A stretch of DNA of 64,000 nucleotides from Oscillospiraceae bacterium (GCA_015068765.1 SVJY01000005.1:1968-65967); one strand, 5' to 3'; positions 14,808 through 41,119 are shown, numbered from the stretch's first letter. The notes: generated from the letters alone by a model not told the origin. Numbers and translations are program-made.

Positions 14808-15827
14808 TTATAATGCATCTACAAAATAGGCATTGGTGCAGGCGTGTTTTCCTGCCTTATCTACCACCGTCAGACGAAAATAACGAACCCCTTCCGGCAC
14901 CTCAAATTCTGCCTTTCTGACAGGTACGCCGTTTTCGCTGTATGCGCGTCCCCTATGTCGAATGTCAAAGATACAAAATACGCTTTGCGCATCCGAGCAT
15001 TCTATATGCACCTTTCCGTCTTCATACCAAAGTGCTGTGATTTCTGGTCCCATAGACGTATAGAAATCGCCGTTTTCCAGTGCTTTTGTAATCGTTCGGT
15101 ACGAAAGATTTTCTGCTTTTATCATCGTGTAGGCTACACCTTGATCACATTTAGGGTCATCCGTCGGCCAGGCGTTATGATTATCGTCTCCGGCAACGCA
15201 GAAAATCCGTTTTCCGCCCCGAAGCATATCGTCATACACCCGCGGGTTATATTCCTCATACCCCAGTGCCGTGGAAGCGCCGTTGAACATTTCCATAGCG
15301 TGCATCCCCGTATATCCCATATATTGTTCGTAATTTTCCTGCGACCAGGTGGGATGGTTATAGGTTACGAAAAAGCCTCTTCCCCGTGCAATCTCTATCA
15401 TTTTGTTGACATTTTCGCAGGAATATTCTCTCTCAAAAGGACTGGAAGAAGCATCAACCTTGACCTTATCACGATTTTCCTTTGCATTGTCTATATACGC
15501 ATACTTTTCATGCCAGCAGGGTTGCTCATCCATGTCGGGTGACAATGCGATAAAGCATATGTGGCAAGTCTTTTCCCAAGCCGAGGGGTGATGATCGAAT
15601 TCATTGAATTCTGCTTCAAAACCTGTCAATGCCAAAAAATTTTCGTCCGTTAATTCGTGATGGGGAATCATAATATCATGGTCTGTGTAGGCAATAATGC
15701 TGTAGCCGAGCTTTTTATAGATTTCTTTTAGCTCTGCCGGTGTCTTTCTGCCGTCTGTCAGTATGGAATGACAATGGAGGTTTGCTTTATAAAATTGTCC
15801 GCCCGAAGGTAATAAATATTTTTTCAT
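14808..15827 (-). CDS. PHP-domain metallo-phosphoesterase (CehA/McbA-like)
   Basis: 339 aa. Carries ANLHCHSILTDG...IAYTDHD and later NHPTW and GDDNHN motifs. Confidence 0.8.
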   Translation of the reverse strand: MKKYLLPSGGQFYKANLHCHSILTDGRKTPAELKEIYKKLGYSIIAYTDHDIMIPHHELTDENFLALTGFEAEFNEFDHHPSAWEKTCHICFIALSPDMDEQPCWHEKYAYIDNAKENRDKVKVDASSSPFEREYSCENVNKMIEIARGRGFFVTYNHPTWSQENYEQYMGYTGMHAMEMFNGASTALGYEEYNPRVYDDMLRGGKRIFCVAGDDNHNAWPTDDPKCDQGVAYTMIKAENLSYRTITKALENGDFYTSMGPEITALWYEDGKVHIECSDAQSVFCIFDIRHRGRAYSENGVPVRKAEFEVPEGVRYFRLTVVDKAGKHACTNAYFVDAL

Positions 15828-20872: not shown

Positions 20873-21098
20873 AATTACAACCTCTTTCTTATCTTAAAAT
20901 AATTTGGCTAAATCAAAAAATGAAAATTAGACTTTTCAAGTCTATGGTTGTATTATAAAGCATTTTACATACAAATCAAATGATTTTTTTTGATTATTTA
21001 AATGAAGTTTTTGTATGATATCTTGTAATTTTACTGCGATTATACCACGCGTTTATGTATAATTCCTCATTGACTTTTTATGATATATCCGTTATGCC

Positions 21099-21851: not shown

Positions 21852-21862
21852 GAGAAATACAA

Positions 21863-22444: not shown

Positions 22445-22630
22445 TAGCATAAAATCCCAGGCAAATCAAGGGTAAAATTAACGCCCTCATAACGAGGGCG
22501 CCCTTGACATGTCTGAGCTTTTATGCTATATTGTGACTAAAGGATGAAATCCTAAAATATGGATTTCATCCCTCAAAAACACTTAGATTATATTATCATT
22601 TTGGAGTTTACACAAAATCGGGGAAATACC
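22067..22630 (+). mobile_element. 3' remnant of an IS256-family insertion sequence (transposase C-terminus plus putative right end)
   Basis: Transposase C-terminal coding sequence, about 180 bp of non-coding tail, and a terminal TTTACACAAAATC-like sequence near 22606-22620 reminiscent of IS256-type ends. No 5' part of the IS is present. An outward-facing promoter-like TTGACA-17-TATATT lies at 22504-22532. Confidence 0.6.
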
Positions 22631-22633
22631 CAA

Positions 22634-22663
22634 AGAAACCCGCCTTTTTCATGGCGGGTTTCT
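22634..22663. terminator. Hairpin AGAAACCCGCC-N8-GGCGGGTTTCT, candidate terminator
   Basis: Perfect 11-bp inverted repeat seen directly, located between the IS remnant and the 3' end of the LacI gene. Confidence 0.4.
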
Positions 22664-22855
22664 TTGCTATCTGAATTGATTTGTTCAACATAAACTACTT
22701 CTTCTCATATACTTTTTCGATAAAATTCGGCTACAATAAAGATAACTAAATTATAATCCTCTACTTTGGATTACAGTACATTCGGTCCATATCGTTCTAT
22801 TTTTCTATATGAAGATTTATCATGCACAGAGGCTTTCCACTGCCGCTTATACGCT

Positions 22856-23836
22856 CTATTTAAATTCAAAAAGCTTCACATCAATAATTTCATGAAATTT
22901 TTCTTTGGAACCATTCATTTTCTGATACAGAATCGAAGATGCCTTATCTGCCCAACCGCCATCTGTCATACCGACACTGATACTTACACCGGGACAGTAT
23001 AAATGTGCATTGATAGCATCAAAACCCACAACAGGTACCGTTGATACAATGGGATGTGATTTAAATCTTGAAATAATCTCAAAAGCAATCAAGTCAGAAA
23101 ATGCAATAATTGAATCGAACGGAATCTTATCCGTCAGAATTTTTTGCAACACCGATTCCACATAATTGGATTTGGGTTCCATTTCAATAAACATAGCTTC
23201 GGAAACATGTATCCCTTTTTCCTCGAATGCTTTTTGTATGCCTTGAAACCTGTTTCCGCTCGACTCAATATATTTGTATGCGCCGATATACAGCGGATTT
23301 TTACAGCCCTGCCCCGCAAGATACTCTCCCAGAATGTAGCCGGACTTAAAATCATCACCGCAAACATAATCCGTATCTATCTCCGAAAAAAATCTACCAA
23401 TCAGAACATACGGAATATGTAACCCATTTAAAAACTCTATATTTTTTGTACTGTGTTGCGATGGGCAAAGTAAAATCCCGTCAACACTCTTACTACATGC
23501 GGTTATAATGGCATCCCGTTCCGTCTCTTCGCTTTCATTTGTATTTAAAATCAGCACCGTATACTGCATAAGACGCATCTTGTCTTCAATCAGTTTAATC
23601 TGATATGCAATATGCGGATTGGAAATATCGGGTACAATTGCCGCAATTGTTTTTGACTTTCCCGAGCGTAGGGATGTTGCAGATGCGTTTGGAATATATC
23701 CTAATTTTTTCGCGGTTTTTAAAACTTTCTCTCTGGTTTCCTCCGATATGTCGTCTCTTCCGTTCATTACGTGAGAAACCGTTCCTATTGTTACGTTCAG
23801 CTCTTGAGCGATATCTTTTAATGTTACTTTTTTCAT
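22856..23836 (-). CDS. LacI/GalR-family transcriptional repressor
   Basis: 326 aa. N-terminal HTH (VTLKDIAQELNVTIGTVSHVMNGRDDISEETREKVLKTAKKLGYIPN) plus a periplasmic-binding-protein-like sugar-binding core. Confidence 0.9.
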   Translation of the reverse strand: MKKVTLKDIAQELNVTIGTVSHVMNGRDDISEETREKVLKTAKKLGYIPNASATSLRSGKSKTIAAIVPDISNPHIAYQIKLIEDKMRLMQYTVLILNTNESEETERDAIITACSKSVDGILLCPSQHSTKNIEFLNGLHIPYVLIGRFFSEIDTDYVCGDDFKSGYILGEYLAGQGCKNPLYIGAYKYIESSGNRFQGIQKAFEEKGIHVSEAMFIEMEPKSNYVESVLQKILTDKIPFDSIIAFSDLIAFEIISRFKSHPIVSTVPVVGFDAINAHLYCPGVSISVGMTDGGWADKASSILYQKMNGSKEKFHEIIDVKLFEFK

Positions 23837-23880
23837 TCCACTTACCTCTCTGTTTATTAAATTATAATGTATTTTTTACC

Positions 23881-23906
23881 AATTTGTCAATAACTATTGA
23901 CAAATT
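23881..23906. promoter_or_regulatory. 26-bp palindrome carrying two back-to-back TTGACA -35 boxes for divergent promoters (LacI gene and the MPE-GH2 operon)
   Basis: AATTTGTCAATA-AC-TATTGACAAATT. On the plus strand TTGACA is followed by 17 nt and then TACTAT. On the minus strand TTGACA is followed by 18 nt and then TATAAT, upstream of the LacI start. Confidence 0.55.
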
Positions 23907-23920
23907 CTTGATTTTATGCT

Positions 23921-23936
23921 ACTATAACGATATAGT
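23921..23936. promoter_or_regulatory. LacI-type operator candidate (16-bp palindrome centred on CG) overlapping the -10/+1 of the plus-strand promoter
   Basis: ACTATAA-CG-ATATAGT. The 18-mer TACTATAACGATATAGTG recurs in the same promoter context at 46483-46501 on the minus strand. A second palindrome, TGACAA-T-TTGTCA, lies at 23936-23948. Confidence 0.55.
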
Positions 23937-23965
23937 GACAATTTGTCAGAAAGGATGCACTTCAT

Positions 23966-24889
23966 ATGGGAAAGGATATTCTGTTCGGAATTTGTGCGGA
24001 TGCACACCAATCCATACAAAACGATATTTCAGGCAGGATTCGTGCTTTTGTAGAAGAAGCTTCAAAGCGAAAGGCAGATTTTATCATTCAGCTTGGTGAT
24101 TTTGTGTTGCCGGATGCCTCCGGTGAAAAAGCCCTCGCGGCGTGGAATAAATTCAGCGGCCCCCGTTATCATGTGCTTGGGAATCACGATACGGAAATGG
24201 GCGGCAAGGAAGCTGTAATGTCCTTTCAGGGACAGAAAGAAAAATATTACAGCTTTGATGCCGGGGATTATCATTTTATTGTTCTCGATACAAATTACTT
24301 TAAATACGGCGACGATTTTATAGATTATAAAGATCTCAATTATCGTGCTTCCGAATCCTTCAACTGTTACATTCCTCCTTTTCAGCTAAAATGGCTTGCC
24401 GAGGATTTGGATAAAACAGATAAACGTTGTTTTATTTTTACCCATGCTGCACTTTGCGTTGGTGACTGGGTGGTTTATAATTTACATGAATTTATGGACG
24501 TTTTATGGCTCGCCAACCAAAAAGCAGGCTTTAATAAGGTAACGATGTGTTTTTCAGGGCATGACCACGCCGATGCCTATCTTTTCAAAGGCGGTATCCA
24601 TTATGTTCTGGTAAACAGCTTAAGTCATAAATATATCGGCCCGAAATACACACAGCATTCTTCTCATGCGACGACGGTGGAAAAGGAATACGGAAAGCTG
24701 GATTATGTTGTACCGTATAAAGATCCTCTGTATGCATTTGTAAGGCTGAAGGAAAACGGACTGATTCAGATTATGGGAAAACAGTCGGAATATGTAGGGA
24801 ACAGTCCTATGGAATTACACTGGGAGCATTATGCTTCTCCCCAAATTTCGTATAGGGAGGTATGGATGAATGGCATTGGCGAATTATGA
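23966..24889 (+). CDS. Calcineurin-like metallophosphoesterase
   Basis: 307 aa. Motifs GICADAH, QLGDFV, GNHD and GHDH. Paralogous to the ORF at 52473-53555 (shared YYSFD.G..HF.VLD.NY). Confidence 0.85.
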   Translation: MGKDILFGICADAHQSIQNDISGRIRAFVEEASKRKADFIIQLGDFVLPDASGEKALAAWNKFSGPRYHVLGNHDTEMGGKEAVMSFQGQKEKYYSFDAGDYHFIVLDTNYFKYGDDFIDYKDLNYRASESFNCYIPPFQLKWLAEDLDKTDKRCFIFTHAALCVGDWVVYNLHEFMDVLWLANQKAGFNKVTMCFSGHDHADAYLFKGGIHYVLVNSLSHKYIGPKYTQHSSHATTVEKEYGKLDYVVPYKDPLYAFVRLKENGLIQIMGKQSEYVGNSPMELHWEHYASPQISYREVWMNGIGEL

Positions 24890-27095
24890 TATGATACTCC
24901 GCGACGGTTGGAAATTTCATCACGGAGAGCTTGACAGAGTCAGCGAAATGCCCATTAACTTATCCCATGCCACCAGTAAAGCCGGCGGTGCCCTGAAAGA
25001 ACTGGATATGTTCAAAGAAGAAACCGTATGGCAGTCTGTGCGCGTACCCCATGACTGGGCAACGGAGCTGCCTCTCGATAAAGAGGCATATGCCGCAGGC
25101 GGTTTTAAAGAAAGAGGAACGGGATGGTACTTTATTTCTTTTCGTTTGCCCGAAGATGAAATCGGCGATGCCAGCCTTATATTTGACGGCGTACTGGGAA
25201 AATGCGAAGTGTTTGTAAACGGTACTGTGGCAGGACGGAATTTCAGCGGCTATAACCGCTTCAGCTTTGATGTGGGCGATTATCTGCTGGAAAACGAGGA
25301 AAATTCCATCGCCGTTTATGTCGATGCAAGAAGATGGGAGGGCTGGTGGTATGAAGGTGCCGGTCTTTACAGAAATGTTTACTTACAATTTCGTGGCAAA
25401 TCCCATTTAGATATGGAAAAATGCTTTGTCAGAAGCGAAAAAAAGGACGGCCGATGGATGGTAGAAGCCGATTTAATCGGCATCGGCACGGATGAGACCA
25501 TGCAGTATCGCCTTTGTCTTACGGACAAAAAAGGAAACTGCATAGGAACGAAAACCGCTTCAGCAAAGGGAGAAACCATTGCCATGCCGGTGGAAAATCC
25601 GACGCTCTGGTCGCCGGAAACGCCGGAATTATATACCCTGACTTGTACCCTTGAAAAGGATGACGAAATCCTGGATACCTTTAAAGCAGGGGTGGGCTTT
25701 CGCCTAATAGAATGGAAAGCGGACGAGGGTATGTTTTTGAACGGAAAGCGGTATCCCGTAAAGGGAATCTGCTGTCATCAGGATCATGCAGGCGTAGGCG
25801 CGGCAGTACCGGATGCACTCATGGAATACCGCATTTCCATATTGAAATCGCTCGGCATCAACGCCTACCGCTGTGCCCATCACGCTCCGACAGAAACACT
25901 TTTAGAAATATGTGACCGTCAGGGAATGCTTGTGATGGTTGAAAACCGAAATTTTGCGGTATCAGAAGATGTGCTGCGCCAGCTTTCTTCTCTTGTTTAT
26001 GTTTCCAGAAACCATCCCAGCGTATTTTTATACAGTTTATTTAATGAAGAGCCATGGCAAAGAGAAGACCGCGGCAGGCGCATTGCCGAAAAAATGCGGG
26101 CGCACATTTTAAAGCTGGATGATACCCGTCCCATCACCGGTGCGCAAAACGGCGGGCTTCTGGAAAAATCCAATGCTTCGGACGCACTGGACGTCATCGG
26201 TGCAAACTATCATCTTGCCGAGTATGATTCTTCCCACGCACGCACGCCGAACAAGGTTATGATCGGAACAGAAAACTGCCCGACCTATGCTACAAGAGGT
26301 GTGCATGCCACCGACAAGGATAAACAAATTTTTGCAAACTACAGCGAGGACTGGGGGGACTTTTCGGAGTCGCTCACCGAAACGATGCACACGGCATTTT
26401 ATAAGCCATACGTGGCAGGCTGTTTTGCATGGAGCGGTTTTGATTACAGAGGGGAGCCGACGCCTTATGGCTGGCCAAGCGTGCTGTCCCATTGGGGCTT
26501 TACCGATTACTGCGGATTTCCAAAGGACCACGCCTATCTTCTTGCCTCATGGTACAGAGAAGAATTGTTTGTGCACCTCTTCCCCCATTGGAATCATACG
26601 CCGGGCGAGGTGGTGCGCGTATGCGCCTATACCAACGCCGAAAAGGCGGAGCTTTTTGTAAACGACTGCTCGCAGGGCGAAATTGCCGTAACCGACTGTC
26701 GTGCCGAATGGCGCGTGCCCTTTACACCGGGTACGATTCGGGTGTGCGCCGCCCGAAACGGACAGACCGCACGTGACGAAGTGAAAACGGCAGGCGCGCC
26801 TGCTTGTATCCGTATTTTGAATACAACACCGGACAAAGCGGATGCAGATGCGCACATTGTGAATGTGTGTATAACGGATGCGGACGGGACGGTAGTACCC
26901 GACTGCAATAAAACGGTATCCTTTGCCGTACCCGCCGGTACCCTTTTAGGGGTTGGCAACGGCGATCCGAACGGACACCTCAATGAAAAAGCAAACAGCA
27001 TCCCGCTTTTCAACGGCTTTGCGCAGCTTATCACCACCGCCGATGCCGTAACGGTAAGCACCGAAGGACTGCCGGACGCACATATCCGATTATAG
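24870..27095 (+). CDS. Glycoside hydrolase family 2 (beta-galactosidase/beta-mannosidase/glucuronidase-type)
   Basis: 741 aa, cytoplasmic. Sugar-binding jelly roll (WYFISF...LIFDGVLGKCEVFVNG), an Ig-like linker (LWSPETPELYTL), and a TIM barrel with RCAHHAP and the acid/base motif NHPSVFLYSLFNEEP. GGGAGG RBS 9 nt upstream. Overlaps the preceding gene by 20 nt. Confidence 0.9.
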   Translation: MALANYDMILRDGWKFHHGELDRVSEMPINLSHATSKAGGALKELDMFKEETVWQSVRVPHDWATELPLDKEAYAAGGFKERGTGWYFISFRLPEDEIGDASLIFDGVLGKCEVFVNGTVAGRNFSGYNRFSFDVGDYLLENEENSIAVYVDARRWEGWWYEGAGLYRNVYLQFRGKSHLDMEKCFVRSEKKDGRWMVEADLIGIGTDETMQYRLCLTDKKGNCIGTKTASAKGETIAMPVENPTLWSPETPELYTLTCTLEKDDEILDTFKAGVGFRLIEWKADEGMFLNGKRYPVKGICCHQDHAGVGAAVPDALMEYRISILKSLGINAYRCAHHAPTETLLEICDRQGMLVMVENRNFAVSEDVLRQLSSLVYVSRNHPSVFLYSLFNEEPWQREDRGRRIAEKMRAHILKLDDTRPITGAQNGGLLEKSNASDALDVIGANYHLAEYDSSHARTPNKVMIGTENCPTYATRGVHATDKDKQIFANYSEDWGDFSESLTETMHTAFYKPYVAGCFAWSGFDYRGEPTPYGWPSVLSHWGFTDYCGFPKDHAYLLASWYREELFVHLFPHWNHTPGEVVRVCAYTNAEKAELFVNDCSQGEIAVTDCRAEWRVPFTPGTIRVCAARNGQTARDEVKTAGAPACIRILNTTPDKADADAHIVNVCITDADGTVVPDCNKTVSFAVPAGTLLGVGNGDPNGHLNEKANSIPLFNGFAQLITTADAVTVSTEGLPDAHIRL

Positions 27096-27115
27096 GAAGG
27101 ACAGGATGTGAGTTT

Positions 27116-27844
27116 ATGAAAATTATTGCCGACACGCATACGCACACAATTATGTCCGGACACGCACATTCCACGCTGCTTGAAAACATTCGTGCGGCAA
27201 AAAGCCGCGACCTTTCGTTTTTATGCGTAACAGACCACACAGGCATCATGCCGTGTGCACCGGACAATACATATTTTTCCTGTATGCGCGCCACACTTCC
27301 CGATATATATGAGGGTGTATATTTGCTTCGCGGCTGTGAAGCAAATATACTGGACGAAACAGGACGGCTGGATGTGCCGGAAGGTGTACTGCAAAAGCTT
27401 GAATGGGTTATTGCTTCCATCCACGGTATTTTAACAAAGCCGATGGATGAGATACGGCACACACAGCTCTGGTGCCGGATTGCGGAAAATCCCCATGTGG
27501 ATGTTATCGGGCATTGCGGGGAGGAGGCTTTCCGCTTTGATTATGAGGAGGGCATCCGTGCTTTTGCGGCACATAAAAAAATTGTGGAAATCAATGCGTA
27601 TTCCTTCCGGAGCCGCCCCACAAGCCGCAAAAACTGTATGGAAATTGCGCGGCTTTGCCAAAAGCACGGCGTTCCGCTCGTTATATCCTCTGATGCACAT
27701 TTTGCAGGTGGTGTCGGCGACGTGCAGACTGCGATTGACCATCTTCAGGAGGCAGGCATTGAGGAGCGCAGCATATTAAATGTAAATACAAACCGTTTTG
27801 CACAATATGTAAGTGCAATGACAGGAAGAACTTTTAATGTATAA
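27116..27844 (+). CDS. PHP-family phosphatase (YcdX-like)
   Basis: 242 aa. MKIIADTHTHTIMSGHAHSTL...CVTDH parallels the N-terminus of E. coli YcdX. Confidence 0.85.
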   Translation: MKIIADTHTHTIMSGHAHSTLLENIRAAKSRDLSFLCVTDHTGIMPCAPDNTYFSCMRATLPDIYEGVYLLRGCEANILDETGRLDVPEGVLQKLEWVIASIHGILTKPMDEIRHTQLWCRIAENPHVDVIGHCGEEAFRFDYEEGIRAFAAHKKIVEINAYSFRSRPTSRKNCMEIARLCQKHGVPLVISSDAHFAGGVGDVQTAIDHLQEAGIEERSILNVNTNRFAQYVSAMTGRTFNV

Positions 27845-27849
27845 GGAGA

Positions 27850-29259
27850 ATGAATATGAAAAAAGAAAAACTGACCTTTGCCTTATTTTTCGGCAACCGC
27901 GGCTTCTTTCCGGGAGAACTGATTGCCGCGGCACGCGAAGATATGCAAAGGGTACTTACGGAAAACGGCTACGACTACATCGTCATGGATGAAGCCGCCA
28001 CACGCTACGGTGCTGTGGAAACCATTGCAGAAGGGAAATTATACCACGATTTTCTGGAAGCACACAAAGGGGAATTTGACGGCGTAATCCTTTCCCTCCC
28101 GAATTTCGGGGACGAAAACGGTGCCACGGTTGCACTTCGGGATGCCGGCGTTCCCATTTTGGTGCAGGCATATCCGGACGAAGCCGGAAAAATGGACTTC
28201 GCCCATCGGCGCGATTCGCTTTGCGGCAAAATTGCCATGTGCAACGTACTTCGCCAATGCGGTATCGCCTATACTTTGACGAAAGATGCTACCACTAACC
28301 CAAACAGCGAAGCCTTTAAAAAAGATCTTGCCTATTTTGCCGCTATATGCCGCGTTGTGCGAAGACTTAAGCATTTCAACATCGGTGCCATAGGCGCAAG
28401 AACAACTGCTTTTAAAACGGTACGTGTGGATGAAATTGCCATGCAGCGTGCCGGCATTAACATTGAAACCATTGATTTAAGTCTTGTTTTTGATTTAATG
28501 GACAATGCAGATGCCGACTTACTGGCAGAAAAGAAAAAATACTATGCATCCATTACAGATTTCGGCACATACCCGCCGGAAAAACTGGACAACATCGCAA
28601 GGCTCGGCGTTGCTTTGGATAAGCTGATTGCGGACTATAATCTACAGGCTGTCGGCGTTCGTTGCTGGGAGGAATTCCAAAAGCGGTATGCCATTGCCCC
28701 ATGCCTTGTACTGAGTGACCTTAACGAACGTGGCATTCCGGCGGCATGTGAACTGGATGTAAACAATGCGGTTATGATGTACGCCCTGCAGGAGGCATCC
28801 GGCGCACCCGTAATGCTTCTGGACGTAAACAATAACTACAAGGATGACCCGAGCAAAACCATTCTCTTCCATTGCGCGGCAATCCCCCGCTCCTTCTATG
28901 CTTCCGAAACAAAAATCGGCGAGCATCTTATGTTTAAAAAATCCTTTGGCGAGGGAAGCGGCGTCGGTATTGTAAACGGCGAAATTTGTACGGGCGAAGT
29001 AACGCTCGGCAGCTTTAAGACAGAGGACGGTGTGCTCCACGCCTTTGCGGCTGATGCAACCCTTACAGAGGATGCAATTGAAGACGCATTTTTCGGATGC
29101 GGTATTGTGGCAGAGGCAGAATGTATGCCGAATCTTCTGACACATATGCTTGAAAACGGCTACCGCCACCATGTGGCAATTGCAAAAGGACAATGGGCGA
29201 AGGCAGTCGGCGAAGCCATGGATAAATATCTCGGCTATGTAATAAAAGTAATTCAATAA
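27850..29259 (+). CDS. L-fucose/L-arabinose isomerase-family sugar isomerase (short ~470-aa form)
   Basis: 469 aa. The N-terminal FGNRGFFPGELI..., the later NFGDENG, and the overall length fit the FucI-like family (COG2407 type). Confidence 0.75.
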   Translation: MNMKKEKLTFALFFGNRGFFPGELIAAAREDMQRVLTENGYDYIVMDEAATRYGAVETIAEGKLYHDFLEAHKGEFDGVILSLPNFGDENGATVALRDAGVPILVQAYPDEAGKMDFAHRRDSLCGKIAMCNVLRQCGIAYTLTKDATTNPNSEAFKKDLAYFAAICRVVRRLKHFNIGAIGARTTAFKTVRVDEIAMQRAGINIETIDLSLVFDLMDNADADLLAEKKKYYASITDFGTYPPEKLDNIARLGVALDKLIADYNLQAVGVRCWEEFQKRYAIAPCLVLSDLNERGIPAACELDVNNAVMMYALQEASGAPVMLLDVNNNYKDDPSKTILFHCAAIPRSFYASETKIGEHLMFKKSFGEGSGVGIVNGEICTGEVTLGSFKTEDGVLHAFAADATLTEDAIEDAFFGCGIVAEAECMPNLLTHMLENGYRHHVAIAKGQWAKAVGEAMDKYLGYVIKVIQ

Positions 29260-29274
29260 TAGGAGGAAAAAGAA

Positions 29275-30159
29275 ATGAACAAGCTTGGCATTTTTATGAA
29301 CTTCTGGGAGAAAAACTGGGACGCAGACCACGCAAAATACATTAAAAAGGCGGCAGAAATCGGGTACGACATTCTTGAATTTCAGGCACAGCCCCTGCTT
29401 GAAATGTCGGACGAAAAGCTGAAATTCTTAAAAGCACTTGCGGATGAAGTCGGCATTGAGCTTACGTATAGCCTCGGTCTTGACCCGAATTACGATGTGT
29501 CTTCTCCGGACGAAGCCGTGCGCCTTGGTGGCGTGGATTACCTCCAGAGAATTATTCGCCAGATTCAAAAAATGGACGGCACACTTCTGTCCGGCGTAAG
29601 CTACGCAGGTTGGGGGACTCCAAACTATGTTTTAAATGATAAAAGACCGCTTCTTGAAAATAGCCTCAAAAGCATGCGCGAAATTATCAAAGTCGCCGAG
29701 GAATGCGGCGTTACATACTGCGTGGAGGCCGTAAACCGTTTTGAAGGTTGCCTCATCAACACAGCGCAGGAAGCCCTAGACTATGCGGCAGAAATCGACA
29801 GCCCGAATATCGGCGTACTGCTCGATACATACCATATGAACATCGAAGAAAATTCTATCGGCGATGCCATTCGCCTGGTCGGCAATAAGCTCACAAGCTT
29901 CCATACCGGCGAAAATAACCGTACCGCCCCCGGCAAAGGGCATCTTAACTGGGATGAAATTTTCGGGGCACTTTCCGATATCGGCTATAAAAACAGAATT
30001 GTTTGTGAGCCGTTTGTTATGCAGGGTGGTGAGGTTGGCAGAGATATCCATGTTTTCCGTGACCTTATCGACAATCCTTCGGAAGCCAGAATTGACGAAG
30101 AAGCCAAATATATTTTAAACTTCGAAAAGGAAATGCTGAAAAAGTGGAATTTGGCATAA
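29275..30159 (+). CDS. Ketose 3-epimerase-like protein (D-psicose/D-tagatose 3-epimerase family, xylose-isomerase-like TIM barrel)
   Basis: 294 aa. LGIFMNFWEKNWDADHAKYIKKAAEIGYDILEF closely parallels the DPEase/DTEase N-terminus (GIYYAYWEQEWEADYKYYIEKVAKLGFDILEI, recalled). Also has CVEAVNRFE and LLDTYHMNIEE metal ligands. Confidence 0.8.
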   Translation: MNKLGIFMNFWEKNWDADHAKYIKKAAEIGYDILEFQAQPLLEMSDEKLKFLKALADEVGIELTYSLGLDPNYDVSSPDEAVRLGGVDYLQRIIRQIQKMDGTLLSGVSYAGWGTPNYVLNDKRPLLENSLKSMREIIKVAEECGVTYCVEAVNRFEGCLINTAQEALDYAAEIDSPNIGVLLDTYHMNIEENSIGDAIRLVGNKLTSFHTGENNRTAPGKGHLNWDEIFGALSDIGYKNRIVCEPFVMQGGEVGRDIHVFRDLIDNPSEARIDEEAKYILNFEKEMLKKWNLA

Positions 30160-30194
30160 CCCTTTTCTACCCTCGTTAAAAAGGAGAGGTTTTT

Positions 30195-31679
30195 ATGCAA
30201 GCTGAATTATATATAAATAAAAATTTTGTTATCGGCGATATTGACAACCGCATTTACGGTTCTTTTATCGAGCAATTCGGCAGAGCCGTATACGGCGGCA
30301 TCTACGAGCCAGACCATGAAACAGCGGACGAAATGGGCTTTCGGCAGGATGTTCTGGAAAAGGTGCGCAAGCTGCACGTACCCATTGTGCGGTATCCGGG
30401 TGGGAATATTCTGTCCGCCTATAACTGGGAGGACGGAACAGGCGACAAGGCCAAAAGACCGCAAAAGCTGGACCTTGCATGGAACACCATTGAACCGAAC
30501 ACGGTGGGAATTGATGAATTTCAGGCATGGGCAAAAAAGGCAGGCACAACCGTTATGATGTCTGTAAATCTCGGCACACGTGGTGTGGAAGAAGCAAGAA
30601 ATTGTCTTGAATACTGCAACGGGGATACGCCCACGTATTATGCCGATATGCGCCGTAAAAACGGTTTTGAAGCACCCTTTGATTTTAAATTATGGTGTCT
30701 CGGAAACGAGATGGGCGGCACGGCGCAAATGTGCCGGAAAACGCCGGAGGAATACGGCCGCCTTGCGGCAGAAACAGGAAAGGTTATGAAGCGGCTTGAT
30801 CCTTCCATCGAGCTTATCGCCTGCGGCAGTTCTCATCGCAACATGCCAAGATTCGGCGAATGGGAGCTTGTGGTTTTGTCGCACACCTACAGCATTGTTG
30901 ATTATCTTTCCATTCATCAGTATTATGACGCAGGCGCCAATGCATTACCTGACCTTTTGGCAAAAACGGTGGATATGGATGATTATATCAAATCGGTTTC
31001 TGCCATGTGTGATACAATTAAGGCGATAAAAAAATCAGATAAAACCATGTACCTTTCCTTTGACGAATGGAATGTATTTCCGAAGGACTTAAGCCAAAAC
31101 GGTGACGGAAAACGGGAATGCGGTTCCCCCCGTTTTGAAGGTACATATACTTTCGGAGATGCGCTGATGGTGGGCTGTATGATGATAACATTGCAGAAAA
31201 ACAGCGACAGGGTAAAAATAGCCTGTCTTGCACAGCTTGTTAATGCCATTGCACCCATTATGACAAATCCGGGCGGTAAGGCGTGGCTGCAGACCATTTA
31301 TTACCCGTTTCTCTATGCATCCTTGTATGGCAGAGGTACTGCCTTGCGGACAGAAATCAAGTGTGATGCATATTCTACGGAAAAGCATCAAAATGTGCCT
31401 TATTTGGAAAGTGCTGTCATTCATAATGCGGAAAATCATGAGCTTATTTTGTTTGCAGTCAACCGCTGTATGACCGATGGGATGGAGCTTATACCCCTTT
31501 TTGAAAATTTCGGAGACTCTACGCTGATAGAACATATTGAATTATATGCAGAAAATCCGGAAGAAAAAAACACCGCCGAAAAGGAATCTGTCAGGGCGCA
31601 AAATGTTCCCATCGGTGAAAAAATCATTCTGAAAAAACATTCGTGGAACATGCTGCGTTTTTCGTATACAGAATGTTGA
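30195..31679 (+). CDS. abfA: GH51 alpha-L-arabinofuranosidase
   Basis: 494 aa, cytoplasmic. IYGSFIEQFGRAVYGGIYEP, VRYPGGNILSAYNWEDG, the acid/base motif WCLGNEMGG and the nucleophile motif LSFDEWNV. Confidence 0.9.
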   Translation: MQAELYINKNFVIGDIDNRIYGSFIEQFGRAVYGGIYEPDHETADEMGFRQDVLEKVRKLHVPIVRYPGGNILSAYNWEDGTGDKAKRPQKLDLAWNTIEPNTVGIDEFQAWAKKAGTTVMMSVNLGTRGVEEARNCLEYCNGDTPTYYADMRRKNGFEAPFDFKLWCLGNEMGGTAQMCRKTPEEYGRLAAETGKVMKRLDPSIELIACGSSHRNMPRFGEWELVVLSHTYSIVDYLSIHQYYDAGANALPDLLAKTVDMDDYIKSVSAMCDTIKAIKKSDKTMYLSFDEWNVFPKDLSQNGDGKRECGSPRFEGTYTFGDALMVGCMMITLQKNSDRVKIACLAQLVNAIAPIMTNPGGKAWLQTIYYPFLYASLYGRGTALRTEIKCDAYSTEKHQNVPYLESAVIHNAENHELILFAVNRCMTDGMELIPLFENFGDSTLIEHIELYAENPEEKNTAEKESVRAQNVPIGEKIILKKHSWNMLRFSYTEC

Positions 31680-31698
31680 CTTTAGAAAGGAAGACAAA

Positions 31699-32331
31699 AT
31701 GAAATCAAGACGAATCAATCATCTCTTGTTTGACTATGCCCGAACCATTGTGGAGCATCCCTTGGACGGCGCAGGTAAGCAAATTTTACGGAACACCGGT
31801 CTTACAGATGAAACAGATATTGAATTTTTTCAAAAGGCTGCCTTTTCCGTTGACAAGTACCTGAATCATCTGGATGAAGGCATTATGGAAAGAGATACTT
31901 ATAAACGCCTTCTGAAGGAAGAACTGCCGCTACACTTACACGGGTATGTCGAAGAAGCAGTCGATTATCATATGTGTGTCCTTCCGGCACTTCCCGGCAT
32001 GCTTGAACTTTTGAAAACGCTGAAAGAGGACGGCTTTAAGCTGTACCTTGTTTCCAACTTAGACCTTTATCATGCAAGACAAATGCACGAAATCGAAGCG
32101 GCTCCCTTTATGGACGATATGATTTTTTCTGCAGATATTGGTATACGGAAGCCTTATCCCGGCTTTTTTGATGCTGCCTGCAGGCAGTTTGGCGTTTCGC
32201 CTTCGGAGTGCCTTTTTATAGACGATCTGGAGGAAAACGTACAGGGTGCACGGGATTTTGGTATAAAAAGCTATGTTTTCCACGGCGATCCACAGGAACT
32301 CGAACGCTTCATTTATTCGGAAGCGATATAA
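31699..32331 (+). CDS. HAD-superfamily hydrolase with atypical motif I
   Basis: 210 aa. Motif I reads LLFDYARTIV (D-x-A instead of D-x-D). Motif IV is FIDDLEENV. Confidence 0.75.
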   Translation: MKSRRINHLLFDYARTIVEHPLDGAGKQILRNTGLTDETDIEFFQKAAFSVDKYLNHLDEGIMERDTYKRLLKEELPLHLHGYVEEAVDYHMCVLPALPGMLELLKTLKEDGFKLYLVSNLDLYHARQMHEIEAAPFMDDMIFSADIGIRKPYPGFFDAACRQFGVSPSECLFIDDLEENVQGARDFGIKSYVFHGDPQELERFIYSEAI

Positions 32332-32373
32332 ACTGCGATACGCATTTCAGTACAAATAAAGGAGAAGATTTTT

Positions 32374-35307
32374 ATGAAAAAAGGACTCACCCTGCTGCTC
32401 ACAATTGTATTGCTCTTTACAATGTCAGCGGTAAACACCACCGCCGTATCGTTCACCGATACGGAAGGAACAAAATGCGAAACCGCCGTCGGTGTTTTGG
32501 CGGCACTCGGCATTGTAGAAGGTAAATCGGAAGGCGTCTACGAGCCGAACAGCTTGCTCACAAGAGCAGAAATGGCTACAATTATTCTCCGTGCCATGGA
32601 TATGGACGGCGTTACTTTTGGCTGGAACATCTTTACGGACGTTCCCGCAAGTCACTGGGCGTATGCCAATATTGCAGCGGCGTATCAGCTGGGCATTATA
32701 AACGGCACAAGTGCCACTACCTTCGAACCGGATAAAAGCGTTACATACGAGCAGGCTGTAAAAATGGTTGTGGCTGCACTCGGTTACACTGTACAGGCAG
32801 ACGTTTTGGGTGGCTACCCCTCCGGATATCTTTCCAAGGCGGCACAGCTTGACCTTTTAAGAGGTGTAACACAAGGCGGCGAAATGACACGTGGCAATAT
32901 GGCAATTCTGCTCTATAACGCACTGGATACAGAACTATTTTTGCAGTACACCTTCGGCGAAGGTGCCTATGATTTTGAAAGCACCGAAACGAAAACCCTG
33001 CTTTCCTACTACCTGAAGGTAGAAAAGTGGATCGGCGAAATCACCGCCACCCCCATGGCACAGTTTGGGACCGCTTTGGAAGGCCGCAAGCTTTTGGGCG
33101 ATGAGGTTAAAGTGGGTGCCCAGATTATGAAAAAGGGCGAGACAAATGCACAGGATATGCTCGGCATCCGCAGTGACATCTATGCAAAGCGTGAGGATGG
33201 AAGCGAAATTCCTGTCATCTTGGCAATCGTACCCCGTGCAAGTGTAGAAATCATGGATGTCAGAGCACAGGATATTCAGTCCAAAACCGACACAGCAGAA
33301 TTTGTATATCTGGATGCGGCAGGTAAAGAGCAAGAGGTCAGTATTGCCGGTGCGACCTTTATCTACAACGGCCGCCAAGAAACCATGACAAACAACCTGA
33401 TCGTGCCTGAAATCGGAACGGTACGTCTTGTGGCTGAAGGGGGAAACGTGGACCTTGTTATGGTTTGGGAATATGAAAACCATATTGTGGAAAATGTTCT
33501 CTCCACAGAGAATAAGGTTTATTTTGCGGGAAGCGGTACGCCGTCTACGATCATTGATCTTAGTGACAACACCCTTCCCACTGTGATGACCGATGCGAAC
33601 GGAAATGGCGTTACCCTCGACAGCCTTATGCAATGGGATGTGCTTTCGATTGCCGAGAGCCTGCCGTCTAACACAAGCCGCGTTCGCCGCATTTATCGTT
33701 CCAATTCGCAGATTACCGGTGAAATCACCGAAATTATCAGCGGCACAGACGAGGTTGTCATCGGCGAAGATGTCTATTCCGTTGCGGCACCCCTAACGAT
33801 CAGTGACGTAAAGCTTGGGCAGAATGCAGCATATTACCTTGACTTTACAGGTGCTATCGCGGCAATGGATACAAGCTATGATACAAGCCGCATTTACGGA
33901 TGGCTCCAGAATGCAGAAAAGACAAAGGGCTTAAATGGTAAGCCGCAGCTGAAAATCTATACCCAAACCGGCGAATGGAAGGTATTCGATCTTGAGGAAA
34001 CCGTTCGCTTTAACGGACAGGGACGCGACAGTGCTTCCCTTCTGGATGCGACACGTGCAGAGGCGAATATCTGGGGGGATGACGTTGCACCTTCTTTTGT
34101 CGCAATAAACGGGACGGTTGTGCCACAGCTTATTTCCTATAAGACAAACGAGGCAGGTCTGATTACGGAAATTGAAACGGCAGTGAATAAGACCTCTCTT
34201 CTTAAAAAAGATGAAGAAAAATTCGGAGACGAATTCAGCATGGACATCTACCAAAATGATGTAAAACAGGTCCGTGCCTTCAACGGTGAAAAAGAAGGCT
34301 ATATGGATGATGCTTCCTATGTAGACGGTGGTCTGCAGTACCTGGACGGCGTGCTATTTAGTCGTGTGTATGCGAACAAAAACACCATTCTCTTTAAAAT
34401 CCCCAAAGACCCTGCCGTTGAAAGAGGATATAGTGTAGGAGCCGCGAACGTGCAGGGGCTGGCGATGATGGAATATCGCTCTTGGGGCTGTCTCTCCTAC
34501 TATGATATTGATGACAGCAATTTCTGCAAGGTTATGGTTATGCGTAATGACCTTATGTATGGAGATTCCGAAGAGGATACAACGGTGATAACCGCCTATC
34601 CTACCGCCTCTGTACCGGCTGCCATCATTACGAAAATCAGCACCGTTTTAAGCGAGGATGGCGAACCCATGCAAGTACTTAAGCTGGTGAACTGGAGTGG
34701 ACAGGAAATCAACGCTATCCTTACAGATTCTTTAGAGTATTGCTTGTATAAGGCTGCAAATGCAAATTTAACGGAAGACCTTGCTTGGTATACGGAAAAA
34801 GACGAAGACGGAACGAAAATACGCGGTGACTATAAGTATATTACAAATAAACATCAATACCGTAAAGAACTCTTCATGGATCCGGCGGATCTGACTGTCG
34901 GTGATGTCATCCAGTATTCGGTTGACAGTGAAAACAAGCTGACCATGGTATCGGTTGCGCACCGTGCAAACTATTCCGGCAATGTGGAATTTTCCGTAAG
35001 CTCGGGTGAAATTCTGTTACAGGGCACACGTGATAATTTCTATCGTGGCGGCAATTTCTCACTTTGCGGTACCGTAATCAAGGTTCTGAAATCGGGTATT
35101 TTGGTATCGACAAACATTGGCGATATCTTTGGTGACGATTCCCAGTTGGATGCCACCCGTATGCTGCCCACAATCGGTAATTTCTTTATCTGGAACAGTG
35201 AAAAACAGGCCCTGACCCAGTGTACAGCTACAGACTTCCTTCCGGAAGACTATATCTGGGCTTTCTGGGACACATCCGACCAGGAAATGGTTATTGCTTA
35301 CCGCTAA
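32374..35307 (+). CDS. Secreted cell-wall-anchored protein: signal peptide, N-terminal triple SLH domain and ~750-aa body of unknown function (paralog S1)
   Basis: 977 aa. Signal peptide MKKGLTLLLTIVLLFTMSAVNTTA. SLH repeats (FTDTEG...TRAEMATIILRAM; FTDVPASHWAYANIAAAYQLGIINGTS...TYEQAVKMVVAAL; ...TRGNMAILLYNAL). Paralog of 54798-57554. Confidence 0.85.
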   Translation: MKKGLTLLLTIVLLFTMSAVNTTAVSFTDTEGTKCETAVGVLAALGIVEGKSEGVYEPNSLLTRAEMATIILRAMDMDGVTFGWNIFTDVPASHWAYANIAAAYQLGIINGTSATTFEPDKSVTYEQAVKMVVAALGYTVQADVLGGYPSGYLSKAAQLDLLRGVTQGGEMTRGNMAILLYNALDTELFLQYTFGEGAYDFESTETKTLLSYYLKVEKWIGEITATPMAQFGTALEGRKLLGDEVKVGAQIMKKGETNAQDMLGIRSDIYAKREDGSEIPVILAIVPRASVEIMDVRAQDIQSKTDTAEFVYLDAAGKEQEVSIAGATFIYNGRQETMTNNLIVPEIGTVRLVAEGGNVDLVMVWEYENHIVENVLSTENKVYFAGSGTPSTIIDLSDNTLPTVMTDANGNGVTLDSLMQWDVLSIAESLPSNTSRVRRIYRSNSQITGEITEIISGTDEVVIGEDVYSVAAPLTISDVKLGQNAAYYLDFTGAIAAMDTSYDTSRIYGWLQNAEKTKGLNGKPQLKIYTQTGEWKVFDLEETVRFNGQGRDSASLLDATRAEANIWGDDVAPSFVAINGTVVPQLISYKTNEAGLITEIETAVNKTSLLKKDEEKFGDEFSMDIYQNDVKQVRAFNGEKEGYMDDASYVDGGLQYLDGVLFSRVYANKNTILFKIPKDPAVERGYSVGAANVQGLAMMEYRSWGCLSYYDIDDSNFCKVMVMRNDLMYGDSEEDTTVITAYPTASVPAAIITKISTVLSEDGEPMQVLKLVNWSGQEINAILTDSLEYCLYKAANANLTEDLAWYTEKDEDGTKIRGDYKYITNKHQYRKELFMDPADLTVGDVIQYSVDSENKLTMVSVAHRANYSGNVEFSVSSGEILLQGTRDNFYRGGNFSLCGTVIKVLKSGILVSTNIGDIFGDDSQLDATRMLPTIGNFFIWNSEKQALTQCTATDFLPEDYIWAFWDTSDQEMVIAYR

Positions 35308-41111: not shown

Positions 41112-41119
41112 ACGCTTTC

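What the first reader, a model, noticed from the sequence alone, without database searches (positions are those of the whole stretch)
23966..27844. Exo-glycosidase sandwiched between two different phosphoesterases (MPE, GH2, PHP), a pairing repeated three times in the window
A calcineurin-type metallophosphoesterase overlaps the GH2 gene by 20 nt. A YcdX-like PHP phosphatase follows 20 nt after the GH2 gene. The paralogous MPE at 52473-53555 sits 15 nt from the GH38 alpha-mannosidase. Another PHP protein (14808-15827) lies between the two large GH-like genes at 11740-18054.

This systematic coupling of a phosphoesterase to a glycosidase suggests that the substrates are phosphorylated or phosphodiester-linked glycans. 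Candidates include phosphomannan, mannose-6-phosphate N-glycans, and teichoic-acid or capsule-type polymers. These would need dephosphorylation before or after glycoside cleavage. Bacteroides uses a phosphatase in its yeast-mannan locus in an analogous way.
Basis: inference. Interest (0 to 1): 0.65.

Follow-up and report, generated by a model that had tools for sequence, protein, structure and literature searches.

The report
Phosphoesterase gene locked to a galactosidase gene
A rumen Clostridia genome has a sugar-degradation operon in which an uncharacterised metal phosphoesterase gene overlaps a beta-galactosidase gene by exactly 20 bases, a pairing kept in about 20 related species, so the phosphoesterase probably helps the glycosidase, but its substrate is unknown.

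Summary
The MPE (23966-24889), GH2 (24870-27095) and YcdX-like PHP (27116-27844) genes lie exactly as described. So do the second MPE next to GH38 and a PHP-superfamily gene at 14808-15827.

The three pairings are not equally meaningful.
- **MPE-GH2:** this is a conserved cassette. In 20 of 24 species-level Clostridia genomes with an MPE ortholog, a GH2 ortholog follows directly. In 17 of these the stop/start overlap is the same 20 nt with an ATG start.
- **YcdX-like PHP:** it joins the cluster in 12 of the 24 genomes. At 51-56% identity it sits in housekeeping contexts instead.
- **MPE2-GH38:** this adjacency is not conserved.
- **14808-15827:** this is a CehA/McbA-type metallohydrolase and may not be a phosphoesterase.

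The MPE family has 126 representatives at E<=1e-30 and no characterised member. It has all the binuclear-site motifs and most resembles phosphodiesterases (ADPRibase-Mn, GpdQ). In Bacteroidota it is secreted and sits in PUL-like loci beside esterases, sulfatases and other phosphoesterases.

Best reading, by inference only: an accessory enzyme that removes a phosphate decoration so that exo-glycosidases can proceed. A sugar-phosphate phosphatase role is not excluded. This is a new variant of a known theme, of moderate interest.

The parts
22856..23836 (-). LacI-family regulator, divergent from the operon
   Evidence: It matches PF00356 and Peripla_BP_1. LacI orthologs occupy the same position in L013, L018 and L022.
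23861..23952 (.). Divergent promoter/operator region. It holds a perfect 12-nt inverted repeat (23881-23892 / 23895-23906) over both -35 boxes, and a second TGACAAtTTGTCA palindrome near 23937-23949.
   Evidence: There is a 12/12 sigma-70 match on the - strand, and TTGACA-17-TACTAT with an extended TG on the + strand. The repeats come and the sequence. Their role as operators is inferred.
23966..24889 (+). MPE1: cytoplasmic binuclear metallophosphoesterase of an uncharacterised clade
   Evidence: It matches PF00149. D12, H14, D45, N73, H74, H160, H199 and H201 are invariant in 56 sequences. The AF2 model has pLDDT 93.5. The nearest folds are ADPRibase-Mn 2nxf and GpdQ, at TM about 0.6. It has no PDB sequence hit and no N-terminal signal sequence.
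24870..27095 (+). GH2 exo-glycosidase, beta-galactosidase-like, translationally coupled to MPE1 by a 20-nt overlap
   Evidence: It has five GH2 Pfam domains. It scores 756 bits on the GalA model NF041462, below the 900 cut-off. Its best PDB hits are GH2 beta-galactosidases, down to 1e-100. NEE and TEN motifs are present. The overlap is conserved.
27116..27844 (+). YcdX-like PHP protein with a predicted trinuclear metal site
   Evidence: It matches PDB 1m65 at 5e-32, with all ligand positions aligned. It scores 243 bits on NF006702.
27850..29259 (+). L-fucose/L-arabinose-isomerase-superfamily aldose-ketose isomerase
   Evidence: It matches PF02952. Its hit to sulfoquinovose isomerase SftI is far below the cut-off. 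It recurs in 10 of the 24 ortholog loci.
29275..30159 (+). Ketose 3-epimerase-like TIM barrel (AP_endonuc_2)
   Evidence: It scores 385 bits on the D-psicose 3-epimerase model NF051856, above the 300 cut-off. It recurs in 7 of the 24 loci. An AP_endonuc_2+MPE fusion exists (P0401).
30195..31679 (+). GH51 alpha-L-arabinofuranosidase (ArfA-like)
   Evidence: It scores 648.6 bits on NF051901, above the 625 cut-off. A GH51-family gene is present in 14 of the 24 loci.
31699..32331 (+). HAD-IA phosphatase, the third phosphohydrolase superfamily in the operon
   Evidence: It matches PF00702 and PF13419. It was not found in the orthologous clusters.
32374..35307 (+). SLH-anchored 977-aa surface protein, the last gene of the operon
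   Evidence: It matches only PF00395. The same gene order is seen on JGI contig L001.
52473..53555 (-). MPE2: deep paralog of MPE1 with a 25-residue insertion after the GD motif
   Evidence: It matches PF00149. It is 31% identical to MPE1. The insertion is visible in the alignment. The true start is probably near codon 31.
50019..52457 (-). GH38 alpha-mannosidase, 15 nt downstream of MPE2. It is followed by lyxose/mannose-isomerase-like, PfkB kinase and AP_endonuc_2 genes.
   Evidence: The adjacency to MPE2 is not conserved in homologs.
14808..15827 (-). CehA/McbA-type PHP-superfamily metallohydrolase, between a GH106-like gene and a DUF6259 gene
   Evidence: It scores 80.2 bits on NF038032, cut-off 80, over its full length. 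Its PDB hits to 3e0f and 3e38 are weak. An HxH...TDHD motif is present.

Best explanation
The region 23966-35307 is a single LacI-controlled operon of a rumen Oscillospiraceae bacterium. It encodes cytoplasmic breakdown of imported oligosaccharides containing galactose and arabinofuranose.

Its conserved core is a two-gene cassette. A distinct clade of binuclear metallophosphoesterase (MPE1) is translationally coupled to a GH2 beta-galactosidase-like enzyme through a fixed 20-nt overlap, so the two proteins are made together.

The most likely mechanism is as follows.
1. MPE1 hydrolyses a phosphate ester or phosphodiester substituent on the oligosaccharide or glycoside. Examples would be a glycerol-phosphate, sugar-1-phosphate or phospho-alcohol decoration. 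Such a group would otherwise block the exo-acting GH2 and GH51.
2. The YcdX-like PHP enzyme, and in this genome the HAD enzyme, remove any remaining phosphomonoester.
3. The isomerase and the ketose epimerase channel the released sugars onward.

**Shown:** gene order, the overlap and its conservation, intact catalytic motifs, predicted cytoplasmic location in Clostridia and secretion in Bacteroidota, and association of the family with glycan-locus genes.

**Inferred:** that the substrate is a phosphorylated glycan, the order of the steps, and any physical MPE-GH2 complex.
For: **Operon structure**
- Intergenic distances run from -20 to 42 nt, with a single promoter/operator region upstream.

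**Conservation of the cassette**
- MPE is followed directly by GH2 in 20 of 24 species-level Clostridia genomes. MPE identity is 59-75% and GH2 identity 48-61%.
- The overlap is the same 20 nt with an ATG start in 17 loci. It is 26 nt in two more.
- The flanking genes differ between loci: AraC or LacI regulators, GH3, ThuA, GDSL esterase, aldolase-like.
- The YcdX-like PHP is in the cluster in 12 loci. A different PHP-domain protein follows GH2 in L022 and L023. The PHP is convergent to GH51-GH2-MPE in L094.

**Active sites**
- All MPE metal-ligand motifs are invariant in 56 sequences.
- All nine YcdX ligand positions are aligned in the PHP.

**Fold**
- The nearest folds are phosphodiesterases and phosphatases: ADPRibase-Mn 2nxf, GpdQ, purple acid phosphatases, Rv0805 and SMPDL3A/B.

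**Family-wide context**
- Bacteroidota homologs carry Tat or lipoprotein signals or T9SS tails. That rules out a purely cytoplasmic sugar-phosphate role for those members.
- One homolog sits in a PUL ordered PL8, GH3, MPE, SASA, esterase, GH20, EEP.
- Fusions exist with EEP, GDSL, AP_endonuc_2 and chitobiase-C domains.

**Precedents for sugar-directed phosphoesterases in gut bacteria**
- BT3783 and BT2630 (PMC4978465) and GlcNAc-PDase (PMC10704324).
Against: - No substrate was identified. There is no characterised homolog and no sequence hit in the PDB.
- No transporter for phosphorylated sugars lies in the window.
- In three or four ortholog loci MPE stands without GH2 (L014, L015, L017, and L013 through a deletion). 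In L011/L012 and L015/L017 it lies beside class-II FBP/tagatose-bisphosphate aldolase-like genes. This fits a role with monomeric sugar phosphates.
- Distant homologs are rarely next to a glycosidase.
- YcdX-like PHP proteins at 51-56% identity lie in housekeeping contexts.
- The HAD gene is not conserved in the cluster.
- All 24 ortholog genomes are related Clostridia, so some of the synteny is simply inherited.
Confidence: 0.4

Rival explanations
1. MPE1, like PHP and HAD, is a phosphatase for free sugar phosphates. It would act on monomeric intermediates such as tagatose or ketose phosphates made from the released galactose or arabinose. Its job would be to relieve sugar-phosphate stress or to complete a phosphorylate-epimerise-dephosphorylate route. 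The B. subtilis HAD phosphatase AraL in the arabinose operon is an analogue (from my own knowledge, not checked here).
For: - The operon carries an aldose-ketose isomerase and a ketose 3-epimerase.
- MPE1 orthologs sit next to class-II FBP/tagatose-bisphosphate aldolase-like genes in L011/L012. In L015/L017 they sit next to such a gene plus a Zn-dependent alcohol dehydrogenase (ADH).
- An AP_endonuc_2+MPE fusion exists (P0401).
- Both MPE operons in the window contain an AP_endonuc_2 gene.
- A PHP homolog lies between hprK and a ROK kinase.
Against: - The conserved cluster contains no kinase.
- The invariant 20-nt coupling is to the glycosidase, not to the isomerase or epimerase.
- Many family members are secreted or T9SS-exported, and free sugar phosphates are cytoplasmic metabolites.
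Confidence: 0.25
2. The 'pairing repeated three times' is largely a by-product of a locus dense in glycosidase genes. On this view only MPE1-GH2 is a functional unit. MPE2, the CehA-like protein and the YcdX-like PHP have functions unrelated to their GH neighbours, such as nucleotide, protein-phosphate or xenobiotic-ester hydrolysis.
For: - Eight of about 41 genes are GH or GH-like, so 2.5 of 7 phosphoesterase genes would have a GH neighbour by chance.
- YmdB is adjacent to the GH106-like gene only by convergence.
- MPE2 homologs at 61-66% identity have no GH38 neighbour. Those at 47-51% have other partners.
- PHP homologs lie in housekeeping contexts.
- The CehA/McbA family is named for carbamate hydrolases.
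Against: - Observed adjacency still exceeds random placement (P about 0.006).
- MPE2 homologs remain in carbohydrate loci with GH4, esterase, GH78-like, GH43-like, or CBM/SLH/SBP genes.
- CehA-like homologs lie beside a GH2 mannosidase-like gene, GHL6, GH77 or an AraA-like isomerase.
- The PHP co-occurs with MPE-GH2 in at least 12 species.
Confidence: 0.2
3. MPE1 does not hydrolyse a phosphate ester. It uses the binuclear metal site on another glycan decoration, such as a sulfate or another ester, or on a glycosidic or lyase-type bond. That would make it a new carbohydrate-active enzyme family.
For: - Neighbours of distant homologs are dominated by sulfatases (8 of 102), GDSL and S9 esterases, and SASA.
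- A fusion to a GDSL esterase exists.
- No phosphate-containing substrate is implied by any other gene of the conserved core.
Against: - All canonical phosphoesterase motifs, including GNHD, are invariant.
- Every close structural relative is a phosphoesterase.
- There is a fusion with an EEP phosphoesterase, and neighbours include Phosphodiest, EEP and PI-PLC proteins.
- To my knowledge no MPE-fold enzyme has a non-phosphoryl or non-sulfuryl substrate.
Confidence: 0.08

Closest known systems
BT3783 / BT2630 phosphatases of the Bacteroides thetaiotaomicron yeast-mannan PULs (Cuskin et al. 2015, PMC4978465)
   Same: They are accessory phosphatases encoded inside a glycan-degradation locus next to GH38 and GH92 mannosidases. 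They were assayed on phosphorylated sugars and N-glycans.
   Different: BT3783 has the tyrosyl-DNA-phosphodiesterase-like (EEP) fold, not the MPE or PHP fold. It belongs to a PUL and is not part of a cytoplasmic operon. There is no translational coupling to a GH. Its activity has been demonstrated, unlike here.
GlcNAc-PDase, a sugar-specific phosphodiesterase from gut Clostridia (Fossa et al. 2023, PMC10704324)
   Same: It is a phosphodiesterase from human fecal metagenomic DNA whose family is mostly from Clostridium species. It removes a phospho-alcohol decoration (PC or PE) from a specific sugar. This is the kind of chemistry proposed here.
   Different: It belongs to the EEP superfamily. 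It was found by a functional screen and not through gene context. Its substrate is GlcNAc-6-PC or GlcNAc-6-PE.
GpdQ glycerophosphodiesterase (Enterobacter aerogenes) and ADPRibase-Mn (zebrafish 2nxf)
   Same: They are the best structural matches to the MPE1 model (E 1e-13 to 4e-14, TM about 0.6). They share the binuclear DxH/GD/GNHD/H/GHxH site.
   Different: Identity is only 15-16%, and there is no sequence-level hit. MPE1 has about 44 extra invariant or near-invariant positions and a C-terminal extension of its own. Neither enzyme is linked to glycosidases.
E. coli YcdX (PDB 1m65)
   Same: The PHP gene is a clear homolog (5e-32), with all trinuclear-site ligand positions aligned.
   Different: The physiological substrate of YcdX is itself unknown (my knowledge; nothing was found). 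E. coli ycdX is not in a glycosidase operon. Homology therefore gives a fold and a chemistry but not a function.
PGAP5/Cdc1/Ted1 (eukaryotic MPEs that remove ethanolamine-phosphate from GPI mannose)
   Same: This is an MPE-fold enzyme acting on a phosphodiester decoration of a glycan (from my own knowledge, not tested here).
   Different: It is a eukaryotic membrane protein. No sequence relationship was examined.

Membership tests
Calcineurin-like metallophosphoesterase superfamily (PF00149) | The five motifs DxH, GD, GNH[D/E], H and GHxH that bind two metal ions | tested here: met
   D12/H14, G44-D45, G72-N73-H74(-D75), H160 and G198-H199..H201 are invariant in alignments of 15 and 56 sequences. 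The Pfam score is above the gathering threshold.
Calcineurin-like metallophosphoesterase superfamily (PF00149) | The beta-alpha-beta-alpha-beta MPE sandwich fold | tested here: met
   The AF2 model has pLDDT 93.5. Foldseek gives 158 PDB matches at E<=1e-3. All 50 matches listed are MPE-fold proteins.
Purple acid phosphatases | A GDxxY motif supplying the tyrosine ligand of Fe(III) | tested here: not met
   The motif reads G44-D45-F-V-L, with no tyrosine at +3.
GpdQ / class III cyclic-nucleotide phosphodiesterase (CpdA, Rv0805) | Sequence-level membership in the subfamily | tested here: not met
   There is no PDB sequence hit at E<=1. NCBIfam gives only YfcE at 20.7 bits against a cut-off of 56. 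The similarity is structural only, TM 0.5-0.6 at 15-18% identity.
YcdX-type PHP phosphatase | Nine His/Asp/Glu ligands of the trinuclear metal site | tested here: met
   H8, H10, H16, H41, E75, H103, H133, D193 and H195 align with the corresponding YcdX residues. The YcdX ligand list itself is from my own knowledge.
YcdX-type PHP phosphatase | Score above the NCBIfam PRK09248 cut-off | tested here: not met
   It scores 243.1 bits against a cut-off of 264. It is a close relative just below the curated threshold.
PHP superfamily / CehA-McbA metallohydrolase (gene 14808-15827) | A full-length match to NF038032 at its cut-off, with an N-terminal HxH...DH motif | tested here: met
   It scores 80.2 bits against a cut-off of 80, over residues 12-336. 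The H18-x-H20 ... T-D-H-D motif is present. Pfam PHP does not reach 1e-3. Phosphoesterase activity does not follow from this membership.
GH2 beta-galactosidase (GalA equivalog NF041462) | Score above the equivalog cut-off | tested here: not met
   It scores 756.5 bits against a cut-off of 900. It is GH2 with a beta-galactosidase-like architecture, but its specificity is not established.
Accessory phosphoesterase of a glycan-utilisation locus (functional class, as for BT3783) | Conserved genomic linkage to glycoside hydrolases across genomes | tested here: met
   This is met for MPE1-GH2 in 20 of 24 species. It is not met for MPE2-GH38. It is partly met for the PHP.
Accessory phosphoesterase of a glycan-utilisation locus (functional class, as for BT3783) | Demonstrated hydrolysis of a phosphate group on a glycan | not testable with these tools
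   This needs enzyme assays.

The most novel reading that the evidence does not exclude
MPE1 and GH2 form a stoichiometric two-enzyme machine. It would depolymerise phosphodiester-bridged galactosides step by step. Candidate substrates are poly(galactosyl-glycerol-phosphate)-type teichoic acids, lipoglycan GroP side chains, or protozoal and fungal phosphoglycans. MPE1 would then be the founding member of a widespread family of glycan-specific phosphodiesterases, so far unrecognised, found in gut Clostridia and in Bacteroidota PULs.
Probability: 0.15. Interest if true: 0.75.

Novelty: new variant of a known kind. Interest (0 to 1): 0.45.

Why it matters
Phosphate, phospho-alcohol and phosphodiester decorations block exo-glycosidases. 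They occur on yeast mannans, N-glycans, teichoic acids, capsules and protozoal glycans. Very few enzymes that remove them are known, and the known ones belong to other folds (EEP, GDPD).

This MPE clade is locked to a GH2 gene by an invariant 20-nt overlap in about 20 rumen and gut Clostridia lineages. It also recurs, in secreted form, in Bacteroidota PUL-like loci. That makes it a concrete and cheap candidate for a new class of accessory enzyme, useful both for understanding gut glycan turnover and as a glycoanalytical tool. It also offers a first testable context for the orphan YcdX-type PHP phosphatases.

If the sugar-phosphate rival is right instead, the finding is an ordinary metabolic safety valve.

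Tried and rejected
1. **PDB sequence search for MPE1 and MPE2.** There were no useful hits, so function cannot be transferred by homology.
2. **Literature searches** for metallophosphoesterases in PULs or phosphorylated-glycan loci found nothing relevant. A search on YcdX substrates returned only PolX and DNA-polymerase PHP papers.
3. **Natural MPE-GH2 fusions** were looked for as evidence of a physical partnership. None appear among the 150 best representatives. Fusions exist with other domains only.
4. **Purple acid phosphatase** was rejected because the GDxxY tyrosine is missing.
5. **MPE2-GH38 as a conserved pair** was rejected after four homolog contexts.
6. **The metagenome scan for CehA-like relatives** gave only six loci, too few for statistics.
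7. **The neighbour-family census** lists only the 25 commonest families. The total share of glycosidases among neighbours of distant homologs could therefore not be counted exactly.
8. **One context look-up failed.** P0100 was not on record.
9. **My crude ORF caller** missed MPE genes in several loci. I replaced it with tblastn mapping.
10. **The GalA/GalB literature** did not clarify the specificity of the GH2.
11. **A structure prediction for the CehA-like protein** was not attempted. No admissible alignment was available, and a single-sequence model would have been unreliable.

Full report
**Observation**

- MPE1 23966-24889 overlaps GH2 24870-27095 by 20 nt. The overlap region reads GGGAGG-N9-ATG for GH2 inside the MPE1 tail ...WMNGIGEL*.
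- The PHP gene 27116-27844 starts 20 nt after the GH2 stop.
- MPE2 52473-53555(-) lies 15 nt upstream of GH38 50019-52457(-).
- 14808-15827(-) sits between two large genes.

Pfam confirms Metallophos for both MPEs. It confirms five GH2 domains, PHP and PHP_C, and three GH38 domains. The PHP protein is a clear YcdX homolog (PDB 1m65, 5e-32), and all nine metal-ligand positions align. MPE1 and MPE2 are 31% identical over their whole length (E 3e-53).

The gene at 14808-15827 gets no Pfam hit. It just reaches the NCBIfam CehA/McbA metallohydrolase domain model (80.2 bits, cut-off 80) and has the N-terminal HxH...TDHD motif. It is PHP-superfamily, but the family is named after carbamate hydrolases. 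Its neighbours are only GH-like: a sub-threshold GH106 hit, and DUF6259.

**Setting**

- The window comes from a Ruminococcaceae/Oscillospiraceae MAG. The identical protein is annotated E7408_01690, and the same gene order appears on JGI metagenome contigs.
- The MPE1 operon runs from 23966 to 35307, with gaps of -20 to 42 nt. Its genes are MPE1, GH2, PHP, a fucose/arabinose-isomerase-superfamily protein, a ketose 3-epimerase (385 bits against 300 for D-psicose 3-epimerase), GH51 ArfA (648.6 against 625), a HAD phosphatase and an SLH surface protein.
- A divergent LacI gene and a promoter region with a perfect 12-nt inverted repeat lie upstream.
- The window holds eight GH or GH-like genes among about 41 genes. 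It holds seven genes of phosphoesterase-type superfamilies. Two of these, a pAp-phosphatase/RNase-RNM-like PHP and YmdB at 9721-11341, are a housekeeping pair.
- Random placement would give 2.5 of 7 with a GH neighbour. Six are seen (P about 0.006). One of the six, YmdB, is adjacent only by convergence, so chance adjacency does occur here.

**Cross-genome test: MPE1**

A profile scan of one genome per species found 451 relatives. The 80 best loci were fetched.

Twenty-four of these are Clostridia orthologs at 59-75% identity.
- In 20 of them a GH2 ortholog (48-61% identity) follows directly.
- In 17 the inferred GH2 ATG overlaps the MPE stop by exactly 20 nt.
- In two the overlap is 26 nt. In three the aligned start is not an ATG.
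- The surrounding genes differ between loci: AraC or LacI regulators, GH3, ThuA, a GDSL esterase, a class-II aldolase-like gene. The pair has therefore survived rearrangement.
- The YcdX-like PHP is in the cluster in 12 loci and absent in four. Its presence cannot be judged in two loci where the contig ends. In L022 and L023 it is replaced by a 462-aa protein with a PHP domain.
- In one further locus, L094, the PHP is convergent to GH51-GH2-MPE.
- The isomerase recurs in 10 loci, the epimerase in 7 and a GH51-family gene in 14. The HAD gene does not recur.
- The exceptions are L013, an apparent deletion, and three Flemingiibacterium genomes. In two of those (L015, L017) MPE is convergent with a Zn-dependent alcohol dehydrogenase (ADH) and a class-II FBP/tagatose-bisphosphate aldolase. 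In L014 it is followed by an HTH-domain gene.

**Cross-genome test: the other pairs**

- MPE2 homologs do not keep GH38.
  - At 66% identity the neighbours are AP_endonuc_2, YgjV and RF-1.
  - At 61% they are SLH, CBM and SBP genes plus an unknown gene.
  - At 47% the order is GH4, esterase, MPE, GH78-like, PGA_cap, MFS.
  - At 51% the neighbours are an unknown gene and a GH43-like gene.
  - The carbohydrate context persists, but the specific pairing does not.
- YcdX-like PHP homologs at 51-56% identity lie between hprK and a ROK kinase, or beside a DAG-kinase-like gene.
- CehA-like relatives (six loci only) lie beside a GH2 mannosidase-like gene and GHL6, beside GH77, or beside an AraA-like isomerase.

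**The MPE family**

- It has 1643 representatives at E<=1e-3 and 126 at E<=1e-30 among 1.84 billion cluster representatives. The whole Clostridia ortholog group collapses to one representative.
- No member has a solved structure detectable by sequence. No paper was found on it.
- All binuclear-site motifs are invariant. About 20 further positions are also invariant.
- The AF2 model is confident (pLDDT 93.5).
- The nearest PDB folds are ADPRibase-Mn, GpdQ, purple acid phosphatases, Rv0805 and SMPDL3A/B, at TM about 0.5-0.6 and 15-18% identity. It is a separate branch whose relatives are phosphodiesterases and phosphatases. The PAP tyrosine motif is absent.
- Clostridia and Paenibacillus members have no signal peptide. 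Bacteroidota members carry Tat or lipoprotein signals, or PKD domains plus T9SS tails.
- Among 102 immediate neighbours of the 36-44% homologs, the commonest families are: sulfatase 8, Peptidase_S9 7, type I phosphodiesterase 7, GDSL 6, other Metallophos 6, ABC permease 6, PQQ propeller 5, NPCBM 4 and EEP 4.
- Worked examples include:
  - a PUL ordered PL8, GH3, MPE, SASA, esterase, GH20, EEP;
  - a Paenibacillus locus with DeoR, MPE and SBP near GH95;
  - large secreted MPE-propeller proteins and a GH116;
  - one locus with no carbohydrate genes at all.
- Fusions occur with AP_endonuc_2, EEP, GDSL and chitobiase-C domains.

**Interpretation**

It is not a general phosphoesterase-glycosidase rule repeated three times. 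It is one tightly conserved, translationally coupled MPE-GH2 cassette, often accompanied by a PHP protein.

Four features favour an accessory enzyme that removes a phosphate-ester decoration from glycan-derived substrates. This is analogous to BT3783 and BT2630 (PMC4978465) and to GlcNAc-PDase (PMC10704324), but uses a different fold.
- The catalytic site is intact.
- The closest folds are phosphodiesterases.
- Many homologs are secreted.
- The family keeps company with enzymes that strip decorations from glycans.

I give this about 0.4.

The main rival is a phosphatase for free sugar phosphates. It is supported by the isomerase and epimerase genes, the aldolase-like neighbours and the AP_endonuc_2 fusion (about 0.25).

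A further reading is that the two additional pairings, and the PHP gene, are functionally unrelated to their GH neighbours and that the three-fold pattern is largely chance. I give this about 0.2. It is not exclusive of the first two readings.

A non-phosphate chemistry is unlikely (about 0.08).

**Verdict**

- The finding is a new variant of a known theme.
- Interest is moderate, because the family is uncharacterised, widespread and easy to test.

Noticed in passing
window 23861-23952: Divergent promoters lie here. There is a 12/12 sigma-70 match for the LacI gene, and TTGACA-17-TACTAT with an extended TG for the operon. A perfect 12-nt inverted repeat (AATTTGTCAATA / TATTGACAAATT) covers both, and a second TGACAAtTTGTCA palindrome follows. 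These are probably LacI operators.
   Followed up: partly
window 31699-32331: A HAD-IA phosphatase lies directly after GH51. It is not conserved in the orthologous clusters.
   Followed up: partly
window 9721-11341: A PHP protein similar to 3',5'-bisphosphate nucleotidase / RNase RNM is followed, after a 10-nt gap, by YmdB. This is a housekeeping nucleotide/RNA pair. YmdB is convergent with the GH106-like gene, which shows that phosphoesterase/GH adjacency can arise by chance here.
   Followed up: partly
window 53465-53555: The MPE2 ORF is probably called about 30 codons too long. All 120 listed homologs align from about residue 31 and are about 330 aa long.
   Followed up: partly
window 29275-30159 and 47528-48361; P0401: Both MPE-containing operons also carry an AP_endonuc_2 (xylose-isomerase-like TIM barrel) gene. 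A natural AP_endonuc_2+MPE fusion protein exists. This recurring link is unexplained.
   Followed up: partly
L011/L012 (about 9022-9987 in L012) and L015/L017 (12221-13090 in L017): Class-II FBP/tagatose-bisphosphate aldolase-like genes sit next to MPE1 orthologs. In L012 one takes the place of the ketose epimerase. In Flemingiibacterium one sits with a Zn-ADH where GH2 is absent.
   Followed up: partly
window 18000-24000: This stretch has low GC (0.36-0.375 against about 0.47 elsewhere). It contains a Fic-domain gene (21099-21851) and a truncated Mutator-family transposase (21863-22444) just upstream of the LacI/MPE operon. It may be an insertion scar.
   Followed up: no
window 32374-35307, 37415-46337, 54798-63837: Seven large proteins of 529-1210 aa carry SLH and/or CBM_4_9 domains but no recognised catalytic domain. 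They may be surface glycan-binding proteins or novel enzymes.
   Followed up: no
window 48486-52457: GH38 is followed by a cupin lyxose/mannose-isomerase-like gene and a PfkB kinase. This looks like a mannoside to mannose to fructose to fructose-phosphate route. A DegT-type aminotransferase lies upstream of MPE2.
   Followed up: no
L065 10916-13390; L078 7352-9868; L041 7044-9818: Bacteroidota loci with MPE homologs also encode large secreted proteins. These combine MetallophosN and Metallophos with a PQQ-like beta-propeller, or a PAP-like MPE with Laminin_G_3 and a T9SS tail. Several distinct phosphoesterases therefore cluster together.
   Followed up: no
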